DNA of 64,000 nt from positions 1 to 64,000 of the IMG/VR virus record IMGVR_UViG_3300020198_000002; one strand, 5' to 3'. This document shows, in pieces, positions 35,646 through 40,791 of the stretch; within the stretch, counting starts at the first letter, position 1, and every line of letters starts with the position of its first letter. The DNA is from a virus. The notes below the pieces were generated by a model. It made no database searches and was not told the DNA's origin. It was given only the letters and a program-made list of their open reading frames with translations. The position numbers and the translations under genes were made by a program.

Positions 35646-35684
35646 TGGGGGTTGCTTTATTACTAAGCAATCCCCATTTTTCTT
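35646..35684 (+). terminator. intrinsic terminator
   Basis: TGGGGGTTGCTT...AAGCAATCCCCA hairpin followed by T-run. Confidence 0.75.
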
Positions 35685-35704: not shown

Positions 35705-38700
35705 ATGCCAAATGTCTACGTCTACGATGAAACAAGAGTAGATTACTTTGTTACTGACGATTTGGGGAATGTTCCTCAACCAGTAACAGAGTTCATTGAC
35801 TATGGCAATGTTTCTGCACAAGCAGATCCACCAGAAATTGATTCATTGCAGTTTAATATAAATGATTACGGATTTGTATCGAGAATTGGTGATGTTTATC
35901 CATACGGCAAGATAAACATAACTGGAAATATTTCGACAGAAAGAGCATATGTACCTGTAACCACTGGACTTGGAATTGTTAGTGGTGCAGCTAAACAAAG
36001 ATTTATTAAATCGACCTGGATCGGGTCTGGCACCCTCTTTGAAATTGGTGGAGGACTGGAAAGACTTGTCATACCCGATTTGGGTGCCGCAGGACCATCT
36101 CCACGCATCACTGGTGGTTCTAGAGAAAGAACTACTAATCGTTATAATGGAACAACCGCAACATTTAAAGTCGTTGCTACTTCTGCGGTAACAAAGGAAT
36201 TTAATGTATATCCAGTAGTCTCTACAATTACCATATCGGTAACTGGAGGTACATCACAAGAATATCCATATGAGTATATCCAAACTATTGTTCAAGAACA
36301 GTTAGTTGGTAAAGCTCGAGAAAAAATTGCGTATCAGTATGCACTTACTGAGATTCTTCCTTTTGAAGAGGATGATTGGGGAGAGTTATCTGATGTAAAT
36401 GGAAGTGCGTTTGATGAAACAACAACAACATTTGATAGTACACTCACACAAAACGTTGCATTTAGTGATCAAGTTATTGTAGAAAAGGAATATTGGGGAG
36501 TAATAACACAAAATCCAAGTCAGACAGAAGATTATGGAAATATTGAGTCTGCCTTCCTGAATAAATTTGGCAAAATACGAACGGTCAAATATACTAAGGC
36601 GAAGTATTGTAAATCATTTGATTACTCTGGTTCTGGTTCAATTTCAGTTTCTACTGGAGTACCACCTACAGATACAGATAGAGCTCGCAAATTTGCAGGA
36701 TCTGGAAACATTGTTATTAATGGTCAACTGGGTCTTTCTCAAGCTCCTCAACATAGAGTATTTGGTCTTGGTGATAAAATTGTTCTTTCTGGCGGATCTA
36801 ATCAAAGATTTATACCAAAACCAATTAGGGGATCTGGACTCGTTAAGATCTTGGGTTCAGCTAGACACAGAAAGACATCCAATCCACCAGAAAGGAAAGC
36901 GGAAATCCTTATCTATGGTTATGTTGATAACGTTAAGACTATATTCCAGCCACAAAGAAAGACAGTCAGAATCAATGTTTCTGGCCAGGCTACAAGGGTA
37001 AAACTATTCAAGGCGTTTAAGGGATCCGATACGATTAGGGTTCTTGGTGCTCTTTCTACTCTGGATATCAGATTTGGTCCACATTGGAGGAGTCCCCTTG
37101 AGAGAGATGGTTATATCGAACCAATTGATTATGGATTTATTACTCAATCAACGACAGAACCTAATGAGGATTGGGGATTAGTAAGTGAAATTCCATTAGT
37201 CATTAATGGTGGCGGATCTCTTGACTTTGGTTATATTATTCCAATATTTACTCGAATCAATATCGTTGGAATTGCTGCTCAAGCATTTGCTAGAGATGCA
37301 TATAAGGGATTGGGTCTGATTAATCTATCTGGAATAAAGGCAGAAAAATCGGCTTATATCTTCAAATCTAATGGACTTTCTGGTATTGCAACTCATCCAG
37401 CCGGATTCTTCTTCTCTGGTGCAAATTGGTTCAGTCAGGCTCCTCAACATAGAGTATTTGGTATTGGTGATTACGTCAAGGTTCTTGGAACTGGTAATGA
37501 ATCCATAACTCCTACAACGGAAATTGGATCTGGAAATATATCAATTTCTGGTGGACTTTCTAATCTTAAGTTTGTAAGTTCTGCAGGAGAACAAACAATT
37601 CTTACCACTATTAGTGGTTCCTCAAAAGAAAGATTCATTCCCAACTTTAATGGATCTGGAAAACTTACTCTCAGTCAGGGAAGAGAGGCTGGACAAACCT
37701 ATCTCAGAATTATTACTGTGGATCCAAAAAGATCTGCAGTTCTATTCTCAGTATATAACAGTCTATCAATATTTGAGAAAAATACAGAATCTTACAATAA
37801 TTCATCAATCAGCAAGAGCGGTGGTGGATCTGCAGATTATGGAAGTATTCTTAATATTCCTTCTTATGGATTTGACCTATCACAACAAGGAAGTGGAAAT
37901 GGCGCATTAACACAAACCTTTGATAATGAAACTAATACTTATGATCAGGATATTGTTACAGGTCGTCGTTATAGTGATGATTTAATTAGCTCTGGATTGC
38001 TGCCAACATTTGATAAGACTTCTTCATATGAAGTCAATTTTGGTTCAAGAAATGTCAGCGAAGATTATGGATATGTCTATCCAAATACTGTTGGTGGACC
38101 GGCATACGATCAATACTTATATCCATATAATACTGGATTCTCTGATCAGGATGGAATTGATAAGGGATACGAAGATCTAGGGTTCTTGAATGAGAATCCG
38201 AATGAACAGGCAAAGGCTCCATTTGGAACAATCCGTCTCCAACAACCATCGTTTGCAAATATTTCCCGAGTTATTCCAAAATATCCAGGAAAAGTTACAC
38301 TATTTGTTTCTGGATTTGCTTCGCAGAAATTTGTACCGAATTGGAATGGATCTGGTACATTAAGTGTTCTTACTGGAGCTGCAGAAGCTTACAGTGCTCA
38401 GACCCCAGAAAATACACCACTAGTTGTAATTTCTGGATCCAGAATTAGTGAAAGGGCAACCTTTGCTATCGAAGGATCTGGTAATATTACAGTTTCTGGA
38501 CAAATTGTAGAAAGAGCAACATTTAGTGAAGTCGGTTCTGGATCTATTAATATTTCTGGAGATTCTCTCAATAGTGTCAGAGCCGATCCAATTGAAAATA
38601 CGGTCCTATTTACATTATATGGTGAATACGAGAAACTTAAGTTTGCCGTTAATCCACCAGTAATAAAAGCCACACTGCGACTTGCTGGGGAACTTAAACA

Positions 38701-40285
38701 TCCATTTATTGACTATACCCCACATTACGGTATTGACAGGAACGTTGGAATTGAGACTGGTATATTCATTCTACCTGGCGGGGCTGGTGGTGAATATGGA
38801 AATCCAGGTATTGTTACTACAAGATATATTCCACAATATCCTGGTGGTTATTCCAATGGTGGAACTGCAGGACCAATTATACTCAGAGATAGAGCAATTT
38901 CGCGTACAAATGCTCCTATCTTTACTGAAGGTACAATTTACATTCTTGGTATTGGTACTGCAGCAAATGGCGATCTCAATGGGGTCCAAGTTGGCGCTAA
39001 ATGGAGATTTATTCCGCAACTTGTTCGTGGTGGTCCTGGACTTATTTCAATCAAAGGTATTGCAGTCACAGCACCACGTCGAGTTTATGGTTACTACGGA
39101 GATCAGAAAAACCCAGGCACTTCTGGAACCATTGTTCTATCTACAGAAAAGAGAAAAACAGAAGAAAGGAAGATTATCAAAATCACTTCTTCAGCTGGAA
39201 TTATTTCTGTTTCTGGAACTGCAACCGAGAGAAAAACAAATGCGTATCAGGGTACTGGAACCCTATTCAAACTATCAGATGCACTGGATTCCAGAACAAA
39301 ATCTTATGTTGCAAGTGGCACTGTACGAGTACAAAGTCAGTCCATATCTTCAGAATCCTTTGTCGCACAAACTCCAGAAAATACAGTCCTCTACACTATC
39401 AGCGGACAAGCGAAAAAATCCGTTCTACTCACTACAGATTTCACTGGAGTTGTGCAAGTTTCGGGAACCAGTGGGGATCCCATTATTCGCAAATCTTTTG
39501 GAGGATCTGGAAAACTATCAACCCGTTCTGGAGCTGCTTGGAACTTTACTCGAAAGTCAATATCAAACGTTGTTCTCGTCAGTATTTCTGGAATCTCAAG
39601 AACCAAGATTGTCCAAGTATTTGGATATTATGGAGATCAAAAGAATCCAGGAACTTCTGGGACTATTACGATTTCTGGACAACTCAGCCATCCACAAATC
39701 GATTATACTCCGGCGTACAAAACTTCTGGATTGTTCAGAGTTGGTGGAACCGCAAAAACAAATCCAAGTCTTCTTGTCATTGGTATCGGCCGAATTTCAA
39801 TTTCTGGGGCATCAAAACAGAAATTCTCCTATCAGGGTTCGGAAAGAACAATTCTCACCACTATTTCTGGATCTGCAAATACCAGAGAACTCAATGTATA
39901 TCAAGACTTTATTACATCTGGTCTTTACAGGATATCTGGTATTTCGGCTACAAGGGAAATACAACTTTATGGATATTATGGGGATCAAAAGAATCCAGGA
40001 ACTTCTGGTGTTATCAGAATATCTGGGACACCTCTGGTACATCCAAATGTCAGATATATTCCATCTCCAGATGGCAGCGGCACAATCTTTATCAGTGGTG
40101 TTGGAAGAAGAAGAAGGATATTCCCACTATACACTGGCGCAGGAATTCTATTTGCATTTTCATCTGGAAAAGAATCTTATTCCAGATCAACATATGTTGG
40201 TATTGGAAATGTTATCCTATCTTCCTCTGGCATTACAGAAATATTGCAATTCGAAGAAGGCAGAACTTACGTTGTTATCATATAA
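35705..40285 (+). CDS. large repetitive Gly/Ser/Thr-rich virion protein (1526 aa)
   Basis: ORF track; repeats (E)DYG.I, GSG.I..SG, QTPENT, SQAPQHRVFG x2, GYYGDQKNPGTSG x3. Confidence 0.8.
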   Translation: MPNVYVYDETRVDYFVTDDLGNVPQPVTEFIDYGNVSAQADPPEIDSLQFNINDYGFVSRIGDVYPYGKINITGNISTERAYVPVTTGLGIVSGAAKQRFIKSTWIGSGTLFEIGGGLERLVIPDLGAAGPSPRITGGSRERTTNRYNGTTATFKVVATSAVTKEFNVYPVVSTITISVTGGTSQEYPYEYIQTIVQEQLVGKAREKIAYQYALTEILPFEEDDWGELSDVNGSAFDETTTTFDSTLTQNVAFSDQVIVEKEYWGVITQNPSQTEDYGNIESAFLNKFGKIRTVKYTKAKYCKSFDYSGSGSISVSTGVPPTDTDRARKFAGSGNIVINGQLGLSQAPQHRVFGLGDKIVLSGGSNQRFIPKPIRGSGLVKILGSARHRKTSNPPERKAEILIYGYVDNVKTIFQPQRKTVRINVSGQATRVKLFKAFKGSDTIRVLGALSTLDIRFGPHWRSPLERDGYIEPIDYGFITQSTTEPNEDWGLVSEIPLVINGGGSLDFGYIIPIFTRINIVGIAAQAFARDAYKGLGLINLSGIKAEKSAYIFKSNGLSGIATHPAGFFFSGANWFSQAPQHRVFGIGDYVKVLGTGNESITPTTEIGSGNISISGGLSNLKFVSSAGEQTILTTISGSSKERFIPNFNGSGKLTLSQGREAGQTYLRIITVDPKRSAVLFSVYNSLSIFEKNTESYNNSSISKSGGGSADYGSILNIPSYGFDLSQQGSGNGALTQTFDNETNTYDQDIVTGRRYSDDLISSGLLPTFDKTSSYEVNFGSRNVSEDYGYVYPNTVGGPAYDQYLYPYNTGFSDQDGIDKGYEDLGFLNENPNEQAKAPFGTIRLQQPSFANISRVIPKYPGKVTLFVSGFASQKFVPNWNGSGTLSVLTGAAEAYSAQTPENTPLVVISGSRISERATFAIEGSGNITVSGQIVERATFSEVGSGSINISGDSLNSVRADPIENTVLFTLYGEYEKLKFAVNPPVIKATLRLAGELKHPFIDYTPHYGIDRNVGIETGIFILPGGAGGEYGNPGIVTTRYIPQYPGGYSNGGTAGPIILRDRAISRTNAPIFTEGTIYILGIGTAANGDLNGVQVGAKWRFIPQLVRGGPGLISIKGIAVTAPRRVYGYYGDQKNPGTSGTIVLSTEKRKTEERKIIKITSSAGIISVSGTATERKTNAYQGTGTLFKLSDALDSRTKSYVASGTVRVQSQSISSESFVAQTPENTVLYTISGQAKKSVLLTTDFTGVVQVSGTSGDPIIRKSFGGSGKLSTRSGAAWNFTRKSISNVVLVSISGISRTKIVQVFGYYGDQKNPGTSGTITISGQLSHPQIDYTPAYKTSGLFRVGGTAKTNPSLLVIGIGRISISGASKQKFSYQGSERTILTTISGSANTRELNVYQDFITSGLYRISGISATREIQLYGYYGDQKNPGTSGVIRISGTPLVHPNVRYIPSPDGSGTIFISGVGRRRRIFPLYTGAGILFAFSSGKESYSRSTYVGIGNVILSSSGITEILQFEEGRTYVVII
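39001..40282 (+). other. segment with no stop triplet in any of the three + frames
   Basis: Read line by line: no TAA/TAG/TGA from 39001 to 40282; track ORFs 38682..40298 (+1 frame) and 39001..40329 (-1 frame) overlap the main gene. Confidence 0.9.
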
Positions 40286-40289
40286 AAAG

Positions 40290-40297
40290 TATAAATA
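40290..40297 (+). promoter_or_regulatory. T4-type late promoter
   Basis: Exact TATAAATA upstream of ATG 40333. Confidence 0.8.
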
Positions 40298-40332
40298 AAT
40301 CAGAAGCAAAATCGGTTCATGATTTTTGACTC

Positions 40333-40791
40333 ATGACAAAACAAGTACAGTTTAGAAAGGGCACAACTGCGGAGCATTTTAACTTCACAGGCGCCCTTGC
40401 TGAAATTACAGTTGATACTGATAAAAAGACAGCCATTGTACACGATGGAGTAACTCCTGGTGGTTTTGAACTTACGAAATCTAGATGGACATTAGCAACT
40501 GGAAATGCATATTTGGGGACAAATCAAAAGTATACTGTTGATTCCCAAAACAGTCCTGGTGGATTTACTTTAACAATGCCAGAACCAAGATCTGTTGGAG
40601 ACTGGGTTTGGATTGAAGATTTCGCAAATTTTTGGAGTCAAAATCCAGTAAATATTGTGTCCGCCTATGATTTTGAAAACGGACATTTGGTTAGAGAATC
40701 ATCTCCACTTATTCTTGATGTATCTGGTGCTTCAATTTCTTTAATTTGGAATGGAACCTTATGGAAAATCTTCAACAATAGAGGAAGTTAA
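40333..40791 (+). CDS. small fibre-associated protein with Mtd-like N-terminal domain
   Basis: QVQFRKGTTAEH..FTGA.AEITVDTDK....VHDG.TPGG; C-terminal Y.VDS.....T.T.P....GD...I.D domain. Confidence 0.75.
   Translation: MTKQVQFRKGTTAEHFNFTGALAEITVDTDKKTAIVHDGVTPGGFELTKSRWTLATGNAYLGTNQKYTVDSQNSPGGFTLTMPEPRSVGDWVWIEDFANFWSQNPVNIVSAYDFENGHLVRESSPLILDVSGASISLIWNGTLWKIFNNRGS

What the first reader, a model, noticed from the sequence alone, without database searches (positions are those of the whole stretch)
39001..40329. 1.28 kb of a virion gene purged of stop triplets in all three + frames
Seen: 39001-40282 contains no TAA, TAG or TGA at any position, so the main frame, the +1 frame (open 38667-40298) and the -1 frame (open 39001-40329) are all open. 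The preceding 334 nt of the same gene has 8 stops in the -1 frame alone (38695, 38710, 38734, 38752, 38791, 38890, 38926, 38998), so about 30 would be expected at that local rate. Synonymous choice looks directed. This T3-rich genome switches to C-ending codons just before AA/AG/GA codons (ATC AAA, TTC AAA, TCC AGA, ACC GAG, GTC AGT, CTC AGC, ATC GAT, TAC AAA, GGC AGA), while TAT/TAC/TGG/TGT and minus-strand stops stay common. The constraint is therefore on sense-strand termination signals. The -1 frame begins TAA-ATG exactly at the boundary and ends 3 nt before the next ATG; all three frames close within 47 nt. Inference: ribosomes traverse this RNA out of frame. Candidate mechanisms are programmed frameshifting or slippage giving alternative C-termini, long-range sliding or iterative re-translation that stop codons would abort, rolling translation of a circularised RNA, or triple overprinting. 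I know of no described phage system of this kind.
Basis: partly seen in the sequence, partly recalled or inferred. Interest (0 to 1): 0.92.

Follow-up and report, generated by a model that had tools for sequence, protein, structure and literature searches.

The report
Phage fibre gene without off-frame stops
The last 1.3 kb of a giant tail-module gene of a freshwater cyanobacterial virus has been cleared by natural selection of every stop triplet in its two unused reading frames, and relatives share this; no described mechanism explains it, and it runs against the usual idea that off-frame stops are neutral or useful.

Summary
Observation confirmed. Window 38998-40283 has no TAA/TAG/TGA at any + strand position. 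That is 1285 nt, against a next-longest 162 nt in the whole 116.6-kb contig. Synonymous permutation expects 34 off-frame stops (minimum 21 in 5000); none is observed.

The sequence is natural: identical contigs at 148-244x depth in four lake metagenomes. The feature is conserved: 37 of 40 orthologous loci, plus the very distant S-CAM3 orthologue, share it. In the complete S-SSM7 genome it is confined to this one gene.

The three stop triplets are the three most depleted off-frame triplets (each 0.13 of expectation). The minus strand is normal. Synonymous sites evolve freely, but stop-creating synonymous changes are accepted at 0.09 times the rate of others, against 1.03 in the gene's first 900 nt.

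Hidden proteins are rejected: the -1 frame has no start codons and the alternative-frame peptides are not conserved. I found no conserved slippery site, RNA family or frame-shifted variant.

Best reading (inferred): selection favours long runs for ribosomes that slip out of frame, so that defective chains get a long nonsense tail instead of being released as near-complete stubs. The mechanism is unproven.

This scan found the same phenomenon before on other DNA. Six full-text searches found nothing in print.

The parts
35705..40285 (+). Giant structural gene (1526 aa) of the baseplate/tail-fibre module. It is the positional orthologue of S-SSM7 SSSM7_110, Sf-FS3 gene 93 and S-CAM3 T040910_094. 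It has 1 Met and 1 Cys in 1526 residues.
   Evidence: ORF. tblastn orthologues and synteny. PHROG 11522 (unknown function) and no Pfam family. Composition.
38999..40282 (+). Off-frame stop desert: 428 codons with no stop triplet in the +1 or the -1 frame. It covers the last protein module, from ...GAK|WRFIP to the C-terminus EEGRTYVVII.
   Evidence: The boundary falls at the same alignment position in five lineages.
38664..38666 (+). Last +1 frame stop before the desert. The +1 frame is open from here to 40296.
38998..39000 (+). Last -1 frame stop (TAA, from GCT AAA), at the 5' edge of the desert.
39089..39127 (+). First GYYGDQKNPGTSG repeat. Further copies lie at 39623-39661 and 39971-40009. 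In relatives the motif reads GYYGDD[KR]DPGTSG, coded GAC GAC ARR GAT CCN.
40283..40285 (+). Main-frame stop codon TAA.
40290..40297 (+). TATAAATA, the T4-type late-promoter consensus (the consensus itself is recalled). Its TAAs help close the frames; the +1 frame stop lies at 40296-40298.
   Evidence: The motif lies 4-19 nt after the main stop in 16 of 19 loci examined.
40327..40329 (+). -1 frame stop TGA, 3 nt before the next gene's ATG. This placement is not conserved in relatives.
40333..40791 (+). Downstream 152-aa tail protein with an Mtd_N domain. Its first 30 residues are identical in 11 of the 19 loci (12 with the window), marine ones included; the L005/L007/L009 group differs at two of the 30 positions.

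Best explanation
This is a selection-maintained 'off-frame stop desert' in the last module of a giant, Met-poor tail/baseplate-module gene of S-SSM7-like and S-CAM3-like cyanomyoviruses.

Shown:
- Purifying selection removes TAA, TAG and TGA, and only these, from both unused sense frames.
- Synonymous sites otherwise drift freely, and the alternative-frame peptides are not conserved.
- The -1 frame cannot be entered by initiation.
- The genes split into long deserts and stretches of normal stop density.

Inferred:
- The selected trait is how far a ribosome can run after it has slipped out of frame.

Most likely purpose (speculative):
- A chain whose ribosome slips in the last module is not released as a near-complete, assembly-competent stub that would poison a multimeric virion part.
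- Instead it receives a long nonsense tail that keeps it out of the particle or marks it for degradation.

The benefit grows with run length. A new stop inside a desert is therefore strongly deleterious, while removing one stop from a stop-dense stretch gains little. This would explain the sharp boundaries and the all-or-none segments.
For: Stop-specific and strand-specific:
- Pooled over 14 representative genes, off-frame stops are 64 observed against 485 expected.
- TAA is at 0.136, TAG at 0.128 and TGA at 0.132 of expectation.
- These are the three lowest among the off-frame triplets with an expectation of at least 20. One-step neighbours are enriched: CGA 1.73, TGG 1.57, CAA 1.44.
- The minus strand is normal.

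Ongoing selection:
- Context-matched stop-creating synonymous changes: 10 of 1161 possible, against 822 of 8188 for other synonymous changes. The ratio is 0.086, Fisher p = 4e-36.
- In the first 900 nt of the same genes: 59 of 677 against 388 of 4563, ratio 1.03 (7 pairs, each used in both directions).

No hidden gene:
- pS is 0.16-0.5 in desert blocks, like the rest of the gene.
- 36 of 39 open -1 frame stretches have no ATG.
- There are no ATG/GTG/TTG in the -1 frame of the zone in 7 of 7 relatives.
- Alternative-frame peptides gave 0 BLASTP hits to any main frame and no Pfam or PHROG family.

Conservation and uniqueness:
- 37 of 40 loci are below the minimum of 200 shuffles.
- S-CAM3 has deserts of 1303 and 1203 nt.
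- In the complete S-SSM7 genome the six longest stop-free stretches, and the 20 lowest-z windows of 424, all lie in this gene.

Run-length pattern:
- 53 of 1128 -1 frame gaps are at least 240 nt, against 0.6 expected. They cover 30,774 of 62,928 nt.
- Neutral-density segments sit next to deserts.
- In the Sf-FS3 clade the purge persists between fixed stops that lie 240-520 nt apart.
Against: - There is no direct evidence that ribosomes are ever out of frame here.
- Nothing tested explains why only this gene is affected. The density of codons read by the phage's own tRNAs is ordinary, 0.127 against 0.117-0.134 in six other large virion genes (0.043-0.094 in gp23, gene 236 and gp43). Homopolymer avoidance is shared with the neighbouring fibre gene, which has normal off-frame stops.
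- A chain with a nonsense tail is also defective, so the advantage over a stub is assumed, not shown.
- In several lineages the off-frames close 33-117 nt before the main stop, and conserved D/E-rich segments are unprotected.
- The L034/L035/L038 lineage has the orthologous gene with fully normal off-frame stops: 68-69 observed against about 68 expected.
- The protein's place and copy number in the virion are unknown. The structure prediction failed.
Confidence: 0.4

Rival explanations
1. Programmed or heavy use of the off-frames. A substantial share of ribosomes is sent out of frame in the last module, by an unrecognised recoding signal or by slippage at many sites. The trans-frame products or the ribosome transit itself would then have a function, possibly linked to the phage-encoded tmRNA.
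For: - Selection per stop is about as strong as typical amino-acid constraint (ratio 0.086).
- The purge is complete and sharply bounded at a conserved position.
- Both frames are purged although the -1 frame can only be reached by shifting.
- A cyanobacterial-type tmRNA is present in S-SSM7, Sf-FS3 and two IMG/VR relatives. By blastn a tmRNA-like stretch is also in S-CAM3, which has deserts too.
Against: - No slippery heptamer is conserved in the zone or at its boundary.
- There is no synonymous-site conservation and no conserved alternative-frame peptide.
- S-SCSM2R has a partial purge (16 against 41 expected) but no tmRNA by three Rfam families.
- In tmRNA-carrying phages the off-frames close at ordinary stops before or near the main stop, so no non-stop complex is expected.
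Confidence: 0.15
2. Termination events inside this mRNA are harmful in themselves. A ribosome that terminates at an off-frame stop might trigger cleavage or decay of the message, break up the ribosome train, or uncouple downstream events. The selected trait would then be 'no termination inside', and the fate of the protein would not matter.
For: - The signal is stop-specific and equal for all three stops.
- Only openness is conserved, as proposed for ribosome-covered ambigrammatic narnavirus RNAs (PMC8155312, abstract and Discussion read).
- Termination-linked mRNA cleavage by RNase LS in T4 infection is a recalled precedent. I did not check it.
Against: - It needs frequent out-of-frame ribosomes, just as the best explanation does.
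- Deserts in the S-SSM7 clade are interrupted by normal-density segments where shifted ribosomes would terminate anyway.
- The downstream gene has its own late-promoter motif, so coupling is not required.
- The position of the off-frame stops relative to the next start is not conserved.
Confidence: 0.15
3. Evolvability. Open off-frames would let pairs of compensating indels create long novel patches in a receptor-binding module.
For: The gene lies in the fast-evolving, mosaic fibre module. Short compensating gap pairs appear in nucleotide alignments of close relatives.
Against: - On inspection the gap pairs lie in variable patches or are allelic mosaics. Only one tiny candidate, about 2 codons, was found.
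- Alternative-frame peptides gave 0 hits to the main frames of 40 sources.
- No frame-shifted variant was seen among the 40 sources (every frame runs to the shared C-terminal region or off the contig end), and the four metagenome contigs laid show no inserted or missing letters.
- Second-order selection is unlikely to give a per-site acceptance ratio of 0.086 (inference).
Confidence: 0.05
4. Avoidance of a non-translational motif: a nuclease, primase or RNA-binding factor that recognises these triplets on one strand.
For: The avoidance is strand-specific. Trinucleotide recognition by primases is known (recalled).
Against: - The avoided set is exactly the three stop codons, each at the same 0.13 of expectation. 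TGG, TAT, TAC, TGT and TGC are at or above expectation (1.04-1.57). No degenerate nucleic-acid motif gives that set.
- The effect is confined to parts of one gene in a 233-kb genome.
Confidence: 0.04
5. Two overprinted protein-coding genes in the +1 and -1 frames.
For: Both frames are open for 1.3-1.6 kb, and for up to about 3.6 kb in the +1 frame of the S-SSM7 clade. In this window the -1 frame starts with ATG.
Against: - The -1 frame lacks any ATG/GTG/TTG in 7 of 7 relatives.
- pS is not depressed.
- The alternative-frame peptides match no family.
- In many lineages the frames are broken by a few fixed stops.
Confidence: 0.03
6. Chance, base composition, recent repeat amplification or an assembly artefact.
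For: The protein is repetitive and rich in G, S and T.
Against: - 0 of 5000 permutations come near zero stops.
- Internal DNA repeats are weak, 72% over 108 nt.
- Identical contigs occur in four runs.
- The feature is conserved at 28-48% amino-acid identity.
Confidence: 0.01

Closest known systems
Ambush hypothesis / out-of-frame (hidden) stop codons (Abrahams & Hurst 2018, PMC5909447, abstract read; Seligmann & Pollock 2004, recalled)
   Same: It concerns selection on off-frame stops as a way of handling ribosomal frameshift errors, and it is tested with the same kind of synonymous-shuffle null.
   Different: The sign is reversed. That paper reports excesses of off-frame stops, typically in AT-rich genomes. 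Here an AT-rich phage removes about 87% of them (100% in this window). The effect is confined to parts of one gene and is not genome-wide.
Ambigrammatic narnaviruses (PMC8155312, abstract and Discussion read; 10.1101/761890 and 10.1101/2020.12.18.423567, start of the abstracts as shown in the search listing)
   Same: A non-coding reading frame is kept free of stops over kilobases by synonymous choice. The authors argue that it does not encode a functional protein and that openness itself (ribosome association) is what is selected.
   Different: There it is one frame of the reverse-complement strand of a small RNA virus of eukaryotes. Here it is both unused frames of the sense strand in part of one gene of a large dsDNA phage, and the opposite strand is normal.
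Overprinted (dual-coding) viral genes
   Same: Long alternative-frame ORFs that exceed the codon-permutation expectation.
   Different: There are no start codons, no conserved alternative-frame peptide and no suppression of synonymous change. Two frames are affected at once.
Programmed -1/+1 frameshifting in phage structural genes (lambda G/GT, T7 10A/10B; recalled)
   Same: A phage late structural gene with an off-frame that stays open downstream.
   Different: There is no conserved slippery site or stimulator. The open stretch is 10-30 times longer. Both frames are open. The trans-frame sequence is unconserved.
Endless ORFs on circular or concatemeric templates (220-nt satellite circRNA; DRT2 'neo' gene; both recalled)
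   Same: Absence of stops in all frames is what such systems require when the unit length is not a multiple of three.
   Different: There is no ribozyme, intron or repeat-junction signal. Stops close all frames at the gene end. No RNA data are available.

Membership tests
Overprinted / dual-coding gene | The alternative frame has a usable, conserved start codon. | tested here: not met
   36 of 39 open -1 frame stretches have no ATG. There are 0 ATG/GTG/TTG in the -1 frame of the zone in 7 of 7 relatives.
Overprinted / dual-coding gene | Synonymous rate of the main frame is depressed, or the alternative-frame protein is conserved. | tested here: not met
   pS is 0.16-0.5 in desert blocks, similar to other blocks. 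No family matches the alternative-frame translations.
Programmed ribosomal frameshift site | A conserved slippery sequence (X XXY YYZ or equivalent) at a fixed position. | tested here: not met
   0-2 heptamers per zone and none shared. The boundary codons differ between lineages.
Programmed ribosomal frameshift site | A trans-frame protein product. | not testable with these tools
   Proteomic or ribosome-profiling data could not be consulted.
Ambigrammatic (reverse-frame open) virus genome | A stop-free frame on the complementary strand. | tested here: not met
   Minus-strand stops are 20/20/38 against a null of 20/22.8/41.3.
Ambigrammatic (reverse-frame open) virus genome | Openness is conserved without a conserved encoded protein. 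| tested here: met
Ambush-type off-frame stop enrichment | Off-frame stops at or above the synonymous-shuffle expectation. | tested here: not met
   0 against 34.4 in the window. 64 against 485 pooled.
Contingency locus / phase-variable gene | A simple-sequence or homopolymer tract that switches the frame, and frame-shifted variants in populations. | tested here: not met
   Homopolymers are at or below expectation. No frame-shifted variant was seen among the 40 sources (every frame runs to the shared C-terminal region or off the contig end), and the four metagenome contigs laid show no inserted or missing letters.
Circular-RNA or rolling translation template | A ribozyme, permuted intron or a circular junction. 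| tested here: inconclusive
   Rfam gave only one sub-threshold chance hit. No RNA run is available for a junction test.
T4-like cyanomyovirus baseplate/tail-fibre module gene | Synteny with the S-SSM7 genes 105-113 and homology to SSSM7_110. | tested here: met
   tblastn gives 36-41% identity over the full length. The gene order is the same.

The most novel reading that the evidence does not exclude
A sizeable fraction of ribosomes is deliberately out of frame in the last module of this gene. The phage would exploit unlimited out-of-frame transit as part of a so far undescribed recoding or quality-control system. One possibility is a system coupled to the tmRNA that most of these phages carry. 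Another is the making of a cloud of trans-frame C-terminal variants of a virion protein.
Probability: 0.12. Interest if true: 0.95.

Novelty: categorically new. Interest (0 to 1): 0.84.

Why it matters
It is a clean natural case in which selection acts strongly on reading frames that encode nothing. The direction is opposite to the ambush hypothesis. The case comes with a built-in negative control (one lineage and the neighbouring genes lack the feature) and with cultured relatives in which it can be tested.

If the error-management reading is right, it shows that the fate of frameshifted products can shape a gene at hundreds of synonymous sites. It also makes the cost of frameshift errors measurable in a real virus. 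If a programmed mechanism is behind it, it would be a new kind of recoding.

On the practical side, synonymous recoding or codon optimisation of such phage genes may not be neutral. Long alternative-frame ORFs in these genes should not be annotated as genes.

Tried and rejected
- **Structure.** AlphaFold2 on a 15-sequence alignment of the last module gave pLDDT 33, all-beta and unusable. I therefore ran no fold search. The ESM Atlas gave only unnamed viral clusters at scores of 0.87 or less.
- **Expression.** No RNA holder is listed among the sequencing runs. All runs laid were DNA contigs.
- **RNA families.** The only hit was a sub-threshold Pospi_RY match on the minus strand (32.5 bits against a gathering score of 40), taken as chance.
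- **Frame-switched homology.** 0 BLASTP hits of alternative-frame to main-frame peptides.
- **Compensated frameshifts.** The gap pairs were inspected and are mostly alignment effects or mosaic alleles.
- **Internal initiation.** Off-frame ATG, GTG/TTG and SD-like counts are near expectation, and [GT]TG in the +1 frame is mildly raised.
- **Slippery heptamers and homopolymers.** No heptamer is shared between lineages (counts are at or below expectation except in L007, 2 against 0.3). Homopolymer avoidance is not specific to this gene.
- **Hungry-codon idea.** The density of codons read by the phage tRNAs is ordinary.
- **'Ambush zone' idea.** The stop cluster just upstream of the desert is at neutral density, not enriched.
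- **Coupling to the next gene.** The UCAUGA-N8-UCAUGA hairpin over its start is weak (z -0.1 to -1.0) and absent in two lineages. The positions of the off-frame stops are not conserved.
tmRNA is present in four purged genomes and, by blastn, in S-CAM3. It is absent from S-SCSM2R, which is partly purged. Its absence from this 55%-complete contig is uninformative. S-CAM1 carries the tmRNA, but I did not examine it for a desert.
- **In-frame start-codon avoidance.** It is real: ATG 38/20156 against 223/19536, GTG 1.3% against 4.0% of Val, TTG 2.6% against 11% of Leu, and the control CTG 9% against 18.5%. The unpurged L034 lineage shows it too, so it is a separate trait.
- **Literature.** Six full-text searches found no description of this phenomenon. 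Supplementary files were not consulted.
Full report
**1.

The main ORF is 35705-40285 (+), 1526 aa. No TAA, TAG or TGA starts at any + strand position between 38998 and 40283, a gap of 1285 nt. The next-longest such gap is 162 nt in the 64-kb window. It is also 162 nt in the whole 116,601-nt contig, where 6766 stop triplets lie on average 17.2 nt apart. Under an exponential gap model that is about e^-75 (my inference).

The +1 frame is open from 38664 to 40296 and the -1 frame from 38998 to 40327.

Permuting synonymous codons inside the 428-codon zone gives 34.4 +/- 3.9 off-frame stops, with a minimum of 21 in 5000 permutations. Drawing codons from the usage of the upstream part gives 42.8. 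No codon before AA/AG/GA ends in T in the zone (0 of 85), against 108 of 275 upstream.

The minus strand is normal, at 20/20/38 against 20/22.8/41.3. Of 146 600-nt windows in long ORFs of the window, the 11 lowest z-scores all lie in 38667-40201.

**2. It is not an artefact**

The window is part of an IMG/VR virus contig, 55% complete. 20 of 23 listed public runs, all lake-water metagenomes, hold every sampled word. In the four runs I laid, one 8672-nt contig each covers the stretch with 0 differences and 0 gaps at depth 148-244. Some of these runs may be the source of the contig. Internal DNA repeats are weak, 72% over 108 nt, so recent repeat amplification does not explain it.

**3. What the gene is**

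- Position: it sits in the baseplate/tail-fibre module of a T4-like cyanomyovirus, in the same order as S-SSM7 genes 105-113.
- Downstream neighbours: a 152-aa tail protein with an Mtd_N domain, a 134-aa protein, and a fibre with CBM_5_12.
- Family: it has no Pfam family and matches only PHROG 11522, of unknown function.
- Relatives among isolates: S-SSM7/S-SSM6a, Sf-FS3 and S-SCSM2R, at 31-41% identity in the last module.
- Composition: the protein is a G/S/T/I-rich repeat protein with three GYYGDQKNPGTSG motifs and only 1 Met and 1 Cys.
- Structure prediction failed, with pLDDT 33.

**4. The desert is conserved**

The search for related loci gave 36 IMG/VR loci. Together with the three isolates and the window there are 40 sources.

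- In 37 of the 40, the off-frame stops in the last 1284 nt (0-16) lie below the minimum of 200 synonymous permutations (17-31).
- The three exceptions, L034, L035 and L038, form one lineage at GC 33% with 68-69 observed against about 68 expected.
- The 37 sequences of at least 1300 aa fall into 17 clusters at 90% identity; three short ones were left out. Identity between clusters is 22-89%, and 28-48% to the window.
- In five lineages the 5' edge of the desert falls within a few codons of the same alignment position, between ...GAK and RFIP. Off-frame stops are used freely in the 25 codons before it and never after.
- In the Synechococcus-phage clades the purge is wider and mosaic. The +1 frame has no stop for about 3.6 kb. 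The -1 frame alternates between deserts and D/E-rich segments of normal density.
- S-CAM3 belongs to another genus. Its 2558-aa positional orthologue is barely alignable (24% identity over one part, E = 8e-3). It has deserts of 1303 and 1203 nt at its 3' end, while its neighbours 089 and 093 are normal.
- In the complete 232,878-nt S-SSM7 genome the six longest + strand stop-free stretches (1197, 549, 459, 294, 204 and 192 nt; the next is 179) lie in this one gene. So do the 20 lowest of 424 window z-scores.

**5. What is selected**

Pooled over 14 representative genes, off-frame stops in the last 1284 nt are 64 against 485 expected. TAA is at 0.136, TAG at 0.128 and TGA at 0.132 of expectation. 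Among the off-frame triplets with an expectation of at least 20 these are the three lowest. Their one-step neighbours are enriched: CGA 1.73, TGG 1.57, TGC 1.48, CAA 1.44. No nucleic-acid motif gives that set, so the signal is 'being a stop codon'.

Between close pairs, synonymous divergence in desert blocks (pS 0.16-0.5) is like that elsewhere in the gene, and pN is much lower. Context-matched synonymous third-position changes that would create an off-frame stop were accepted 10 times of 1161 possible. Other synonymous changes were accepted 822 times of 8188. The ratio is 0.086, p = 4e-36. In the first 900 nt of the same genes the ratio is 1.03, from 59 of 677 against 388 of 4563 (7 pairs, each in both directions, so not fully independent).

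**6. What it is not**

Hidden genes are rejected:
- 36 of 39 open -1 frame stretches contain no ATG.
- The -1 frame of the zone has no ATG, GTG or TTG in 7 of 7 relatives, because Cys and Trp are almost absent from the protein.
- Alternative-frame peptides hit no main frame of any relative and no Pfam or PHROG family.

A programmed shift site is not visible:
- No slippery heptamer is shared between lineages.
- Homopolymers are depleted, but equally so in the neighbouring fibre gene, which has normal off-frame stops.

DNA-level frame variation was not seen, and the candidate compensated frameshifts dissolve on inspection. Rfam finds nothing.

The features that made the window look designed are local or ordinary. 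The ATG at the 5' edge and the TGA 3 nt before the next ATG are not conserved. The closure of all frames within 47 nt follows from an ordinary AT-rich spacer. That spacer carries TATAAATA 4-19 nt after the stop in 16 of 19 loci.

**7. How it most likely works**

A set equal to the stop codons, on the sense strand only, points to ribosomes with release factors (inference). The -1 frame cannot be entered by initiation, so its readers must be ribosomes that shifted.

The genes divide into deserts and normal stretches. 53 of 1128 -1 frame gaps are at least 240 nt, against 0.6 expected, and they cover 49% of the length. Segments next to deserts are at neutral density, neither purged nor enriched. 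Where a few stops are fixed (Sf-FS3 clade), the purge persists between them at spacings of 240-520 nt.

This pattern fits a benefit that grows with the distance an out-of-frame ribosome can run. In a desert a new stop cuts short every ribosome that shifted upstream of it, so it is strongly selected against. In a stop-dense stretch, removing one stop gains about 40 nt and is nearly neutral. That gives two stable states and sharp edges (my argument, not a computation). It speaks against three alternatives:
- an all-or-none need to reach the gene's end;
- a uniform hazard per stop;
- evolvability, which could hardly give an acceptance ratio of 0.086.

The most plausible purpose is protein-level error management. 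A chain that shifts late is not released as a near-complete stub that could enter and spoil a multimeric virion part. Instead it drags a long nonsense tail. I put this at 0.4.

It leaves three things unexplained:
- why only this gene is affected, since its phage-tRNA codon density is ordinary;
- why a tailed chain would be harmless;
- why the L034 lineage does without the purge.

Rivals are programmed out-of-frame transit (0.15) and harm from termination events to the mRNA (0.15).

**8. Relation to earlier notes of this scan**

The scan has found the same phenomenon before on other DNA: e1-6098302, e1-5994377, e1-5875135, e1-5362471 and e1-6052903. I treated these as leads.

One note claimed the trait occurs only in phages with their own tmRNA, and I tested that claim. 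A cyanobacterial-type tmRNA is present in S-SSM7 (109 bits), in Sf-FS3 and in two IMG/VR relatives. By blastn it is also in S-SSM6a, S-CAM1 and S-CAM3. S-SCSM2R is a complete genome with a partial purge and has none by three Rfam families. In tmRNA-carrying phages the off-frames end at ordinary stops. The link is therefore at best a clade marker so far.

**9. Comparison with what is known, and novelty**

The ambush hypothesis predicts, and Abrahams & Hurst 2018 report, excess off-frame stops, typically in AT-rich genomes (PMC5909447, abstract). This is the reverse, and it is local.

Ambigrammatic narnaviruses keep a complementary-strand frame open without, as argued, encoding a protein, perhaps to keep ribosomes on the RNA (PMC8155312, abstract and Discussion). 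This is the nearest analogue in logic. It differs in strand, number of frames, genome type and host.

Six full-text searches found no description of a sense-strand, two-frame stop desert in a phage gene. The library lacks most subscription journals, so this is not proof of absence.

I rate the finding real, conserved, under strong selection and mechanistically unexplained. Interest is 0.84.

Noticed in passing
L041:20984-21286 (S-SSM7 record GU071098.1); also L046, L047, L048: S-SSM7 encodes a cyanobacterial-type permuted tmRNA (RF01851, 109 bits against a gathering score of 70). It lies under a CDS annotated 'hypothetical protein'. Sf-FS3 and two IMG/VR relatives have it too (143-147 and 109 bits), and blastn finds it in S-SSM6a, S-CAM1 and S-CAM3. 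ARAGORN reads an unusually long tag.
   Followed up: partly
window 35705-40285 and orthologues: In-frame start codons are scarce throughout the gene family: ATG 38 of 20,156 codons against 223 of 19,536 in neighbouring genes. GTG and TTG are depleted 3-4 fold, while the control CTG is depleted 2 fold. The L034 lineage, which has normal off-frame stops, shows the same scarcity, so this is a separate trait. The proteins have almost no sulphur-containing residues.
   Followed up: partly
window 40290-40345: A TATAAATA late-promoter motif lies right after the stop. It is followed by a conserved AAATCAGAAGCA and then by UCAUGA-N8-UCAUGA, whose second copy contains the next gene's start codon. The predicted hairpin is weak (about -6 kcal/mol, z -0.1 to -1.0) and is replaced by other sequences in the S-SSM7 and L022 lineages.
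   Followed up: partly
window 40333-40791: The 152-aa Mtd_N tail protein is extremely conserved. Its first 30 residues are identical between this lake phage and 11 of the 18 other loci compared, marine Synechococcus phages included (the L005/L007/L009 group differs at two positions), although the upstream gene's last module is only about 40% identical.
   Followed up: no
window 35646-35676: A strong terminator-like hairpin (12 pairs, followed by a T run) lies between the upstream 335-aa gene and the start of the giant gene, 28 nt before its ATG. It could attenuate expression or stabilise the 5' end.
   Followed up: no
L034:3976-8799, L035, L038: One orthologous lineage (GC 33%) has fully normal off-frame stop density. 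Its downstream Mtd_N domain is fused to a longer protein, and it lacks the exact TATAAATA. It is a natural negative control for any experiment.
   Followed up: partly
S-SSM7 record, loci L044 and L045: The phage tRNAs read GGA, AUA, ACA, AGA and UUA. In the purged part of the gene TTA and TTG are avoided (5% and 3% of Leu, against 28% and 17% elsewhere), while CTA and CTG are not.
   Followed up: partly
window 39134-39215 (-): A sub-threshold Rfam match to the Pospiviroid RY motif (32.5 bits against a gathering score of 40). I took it as chance.
   Followed up: no
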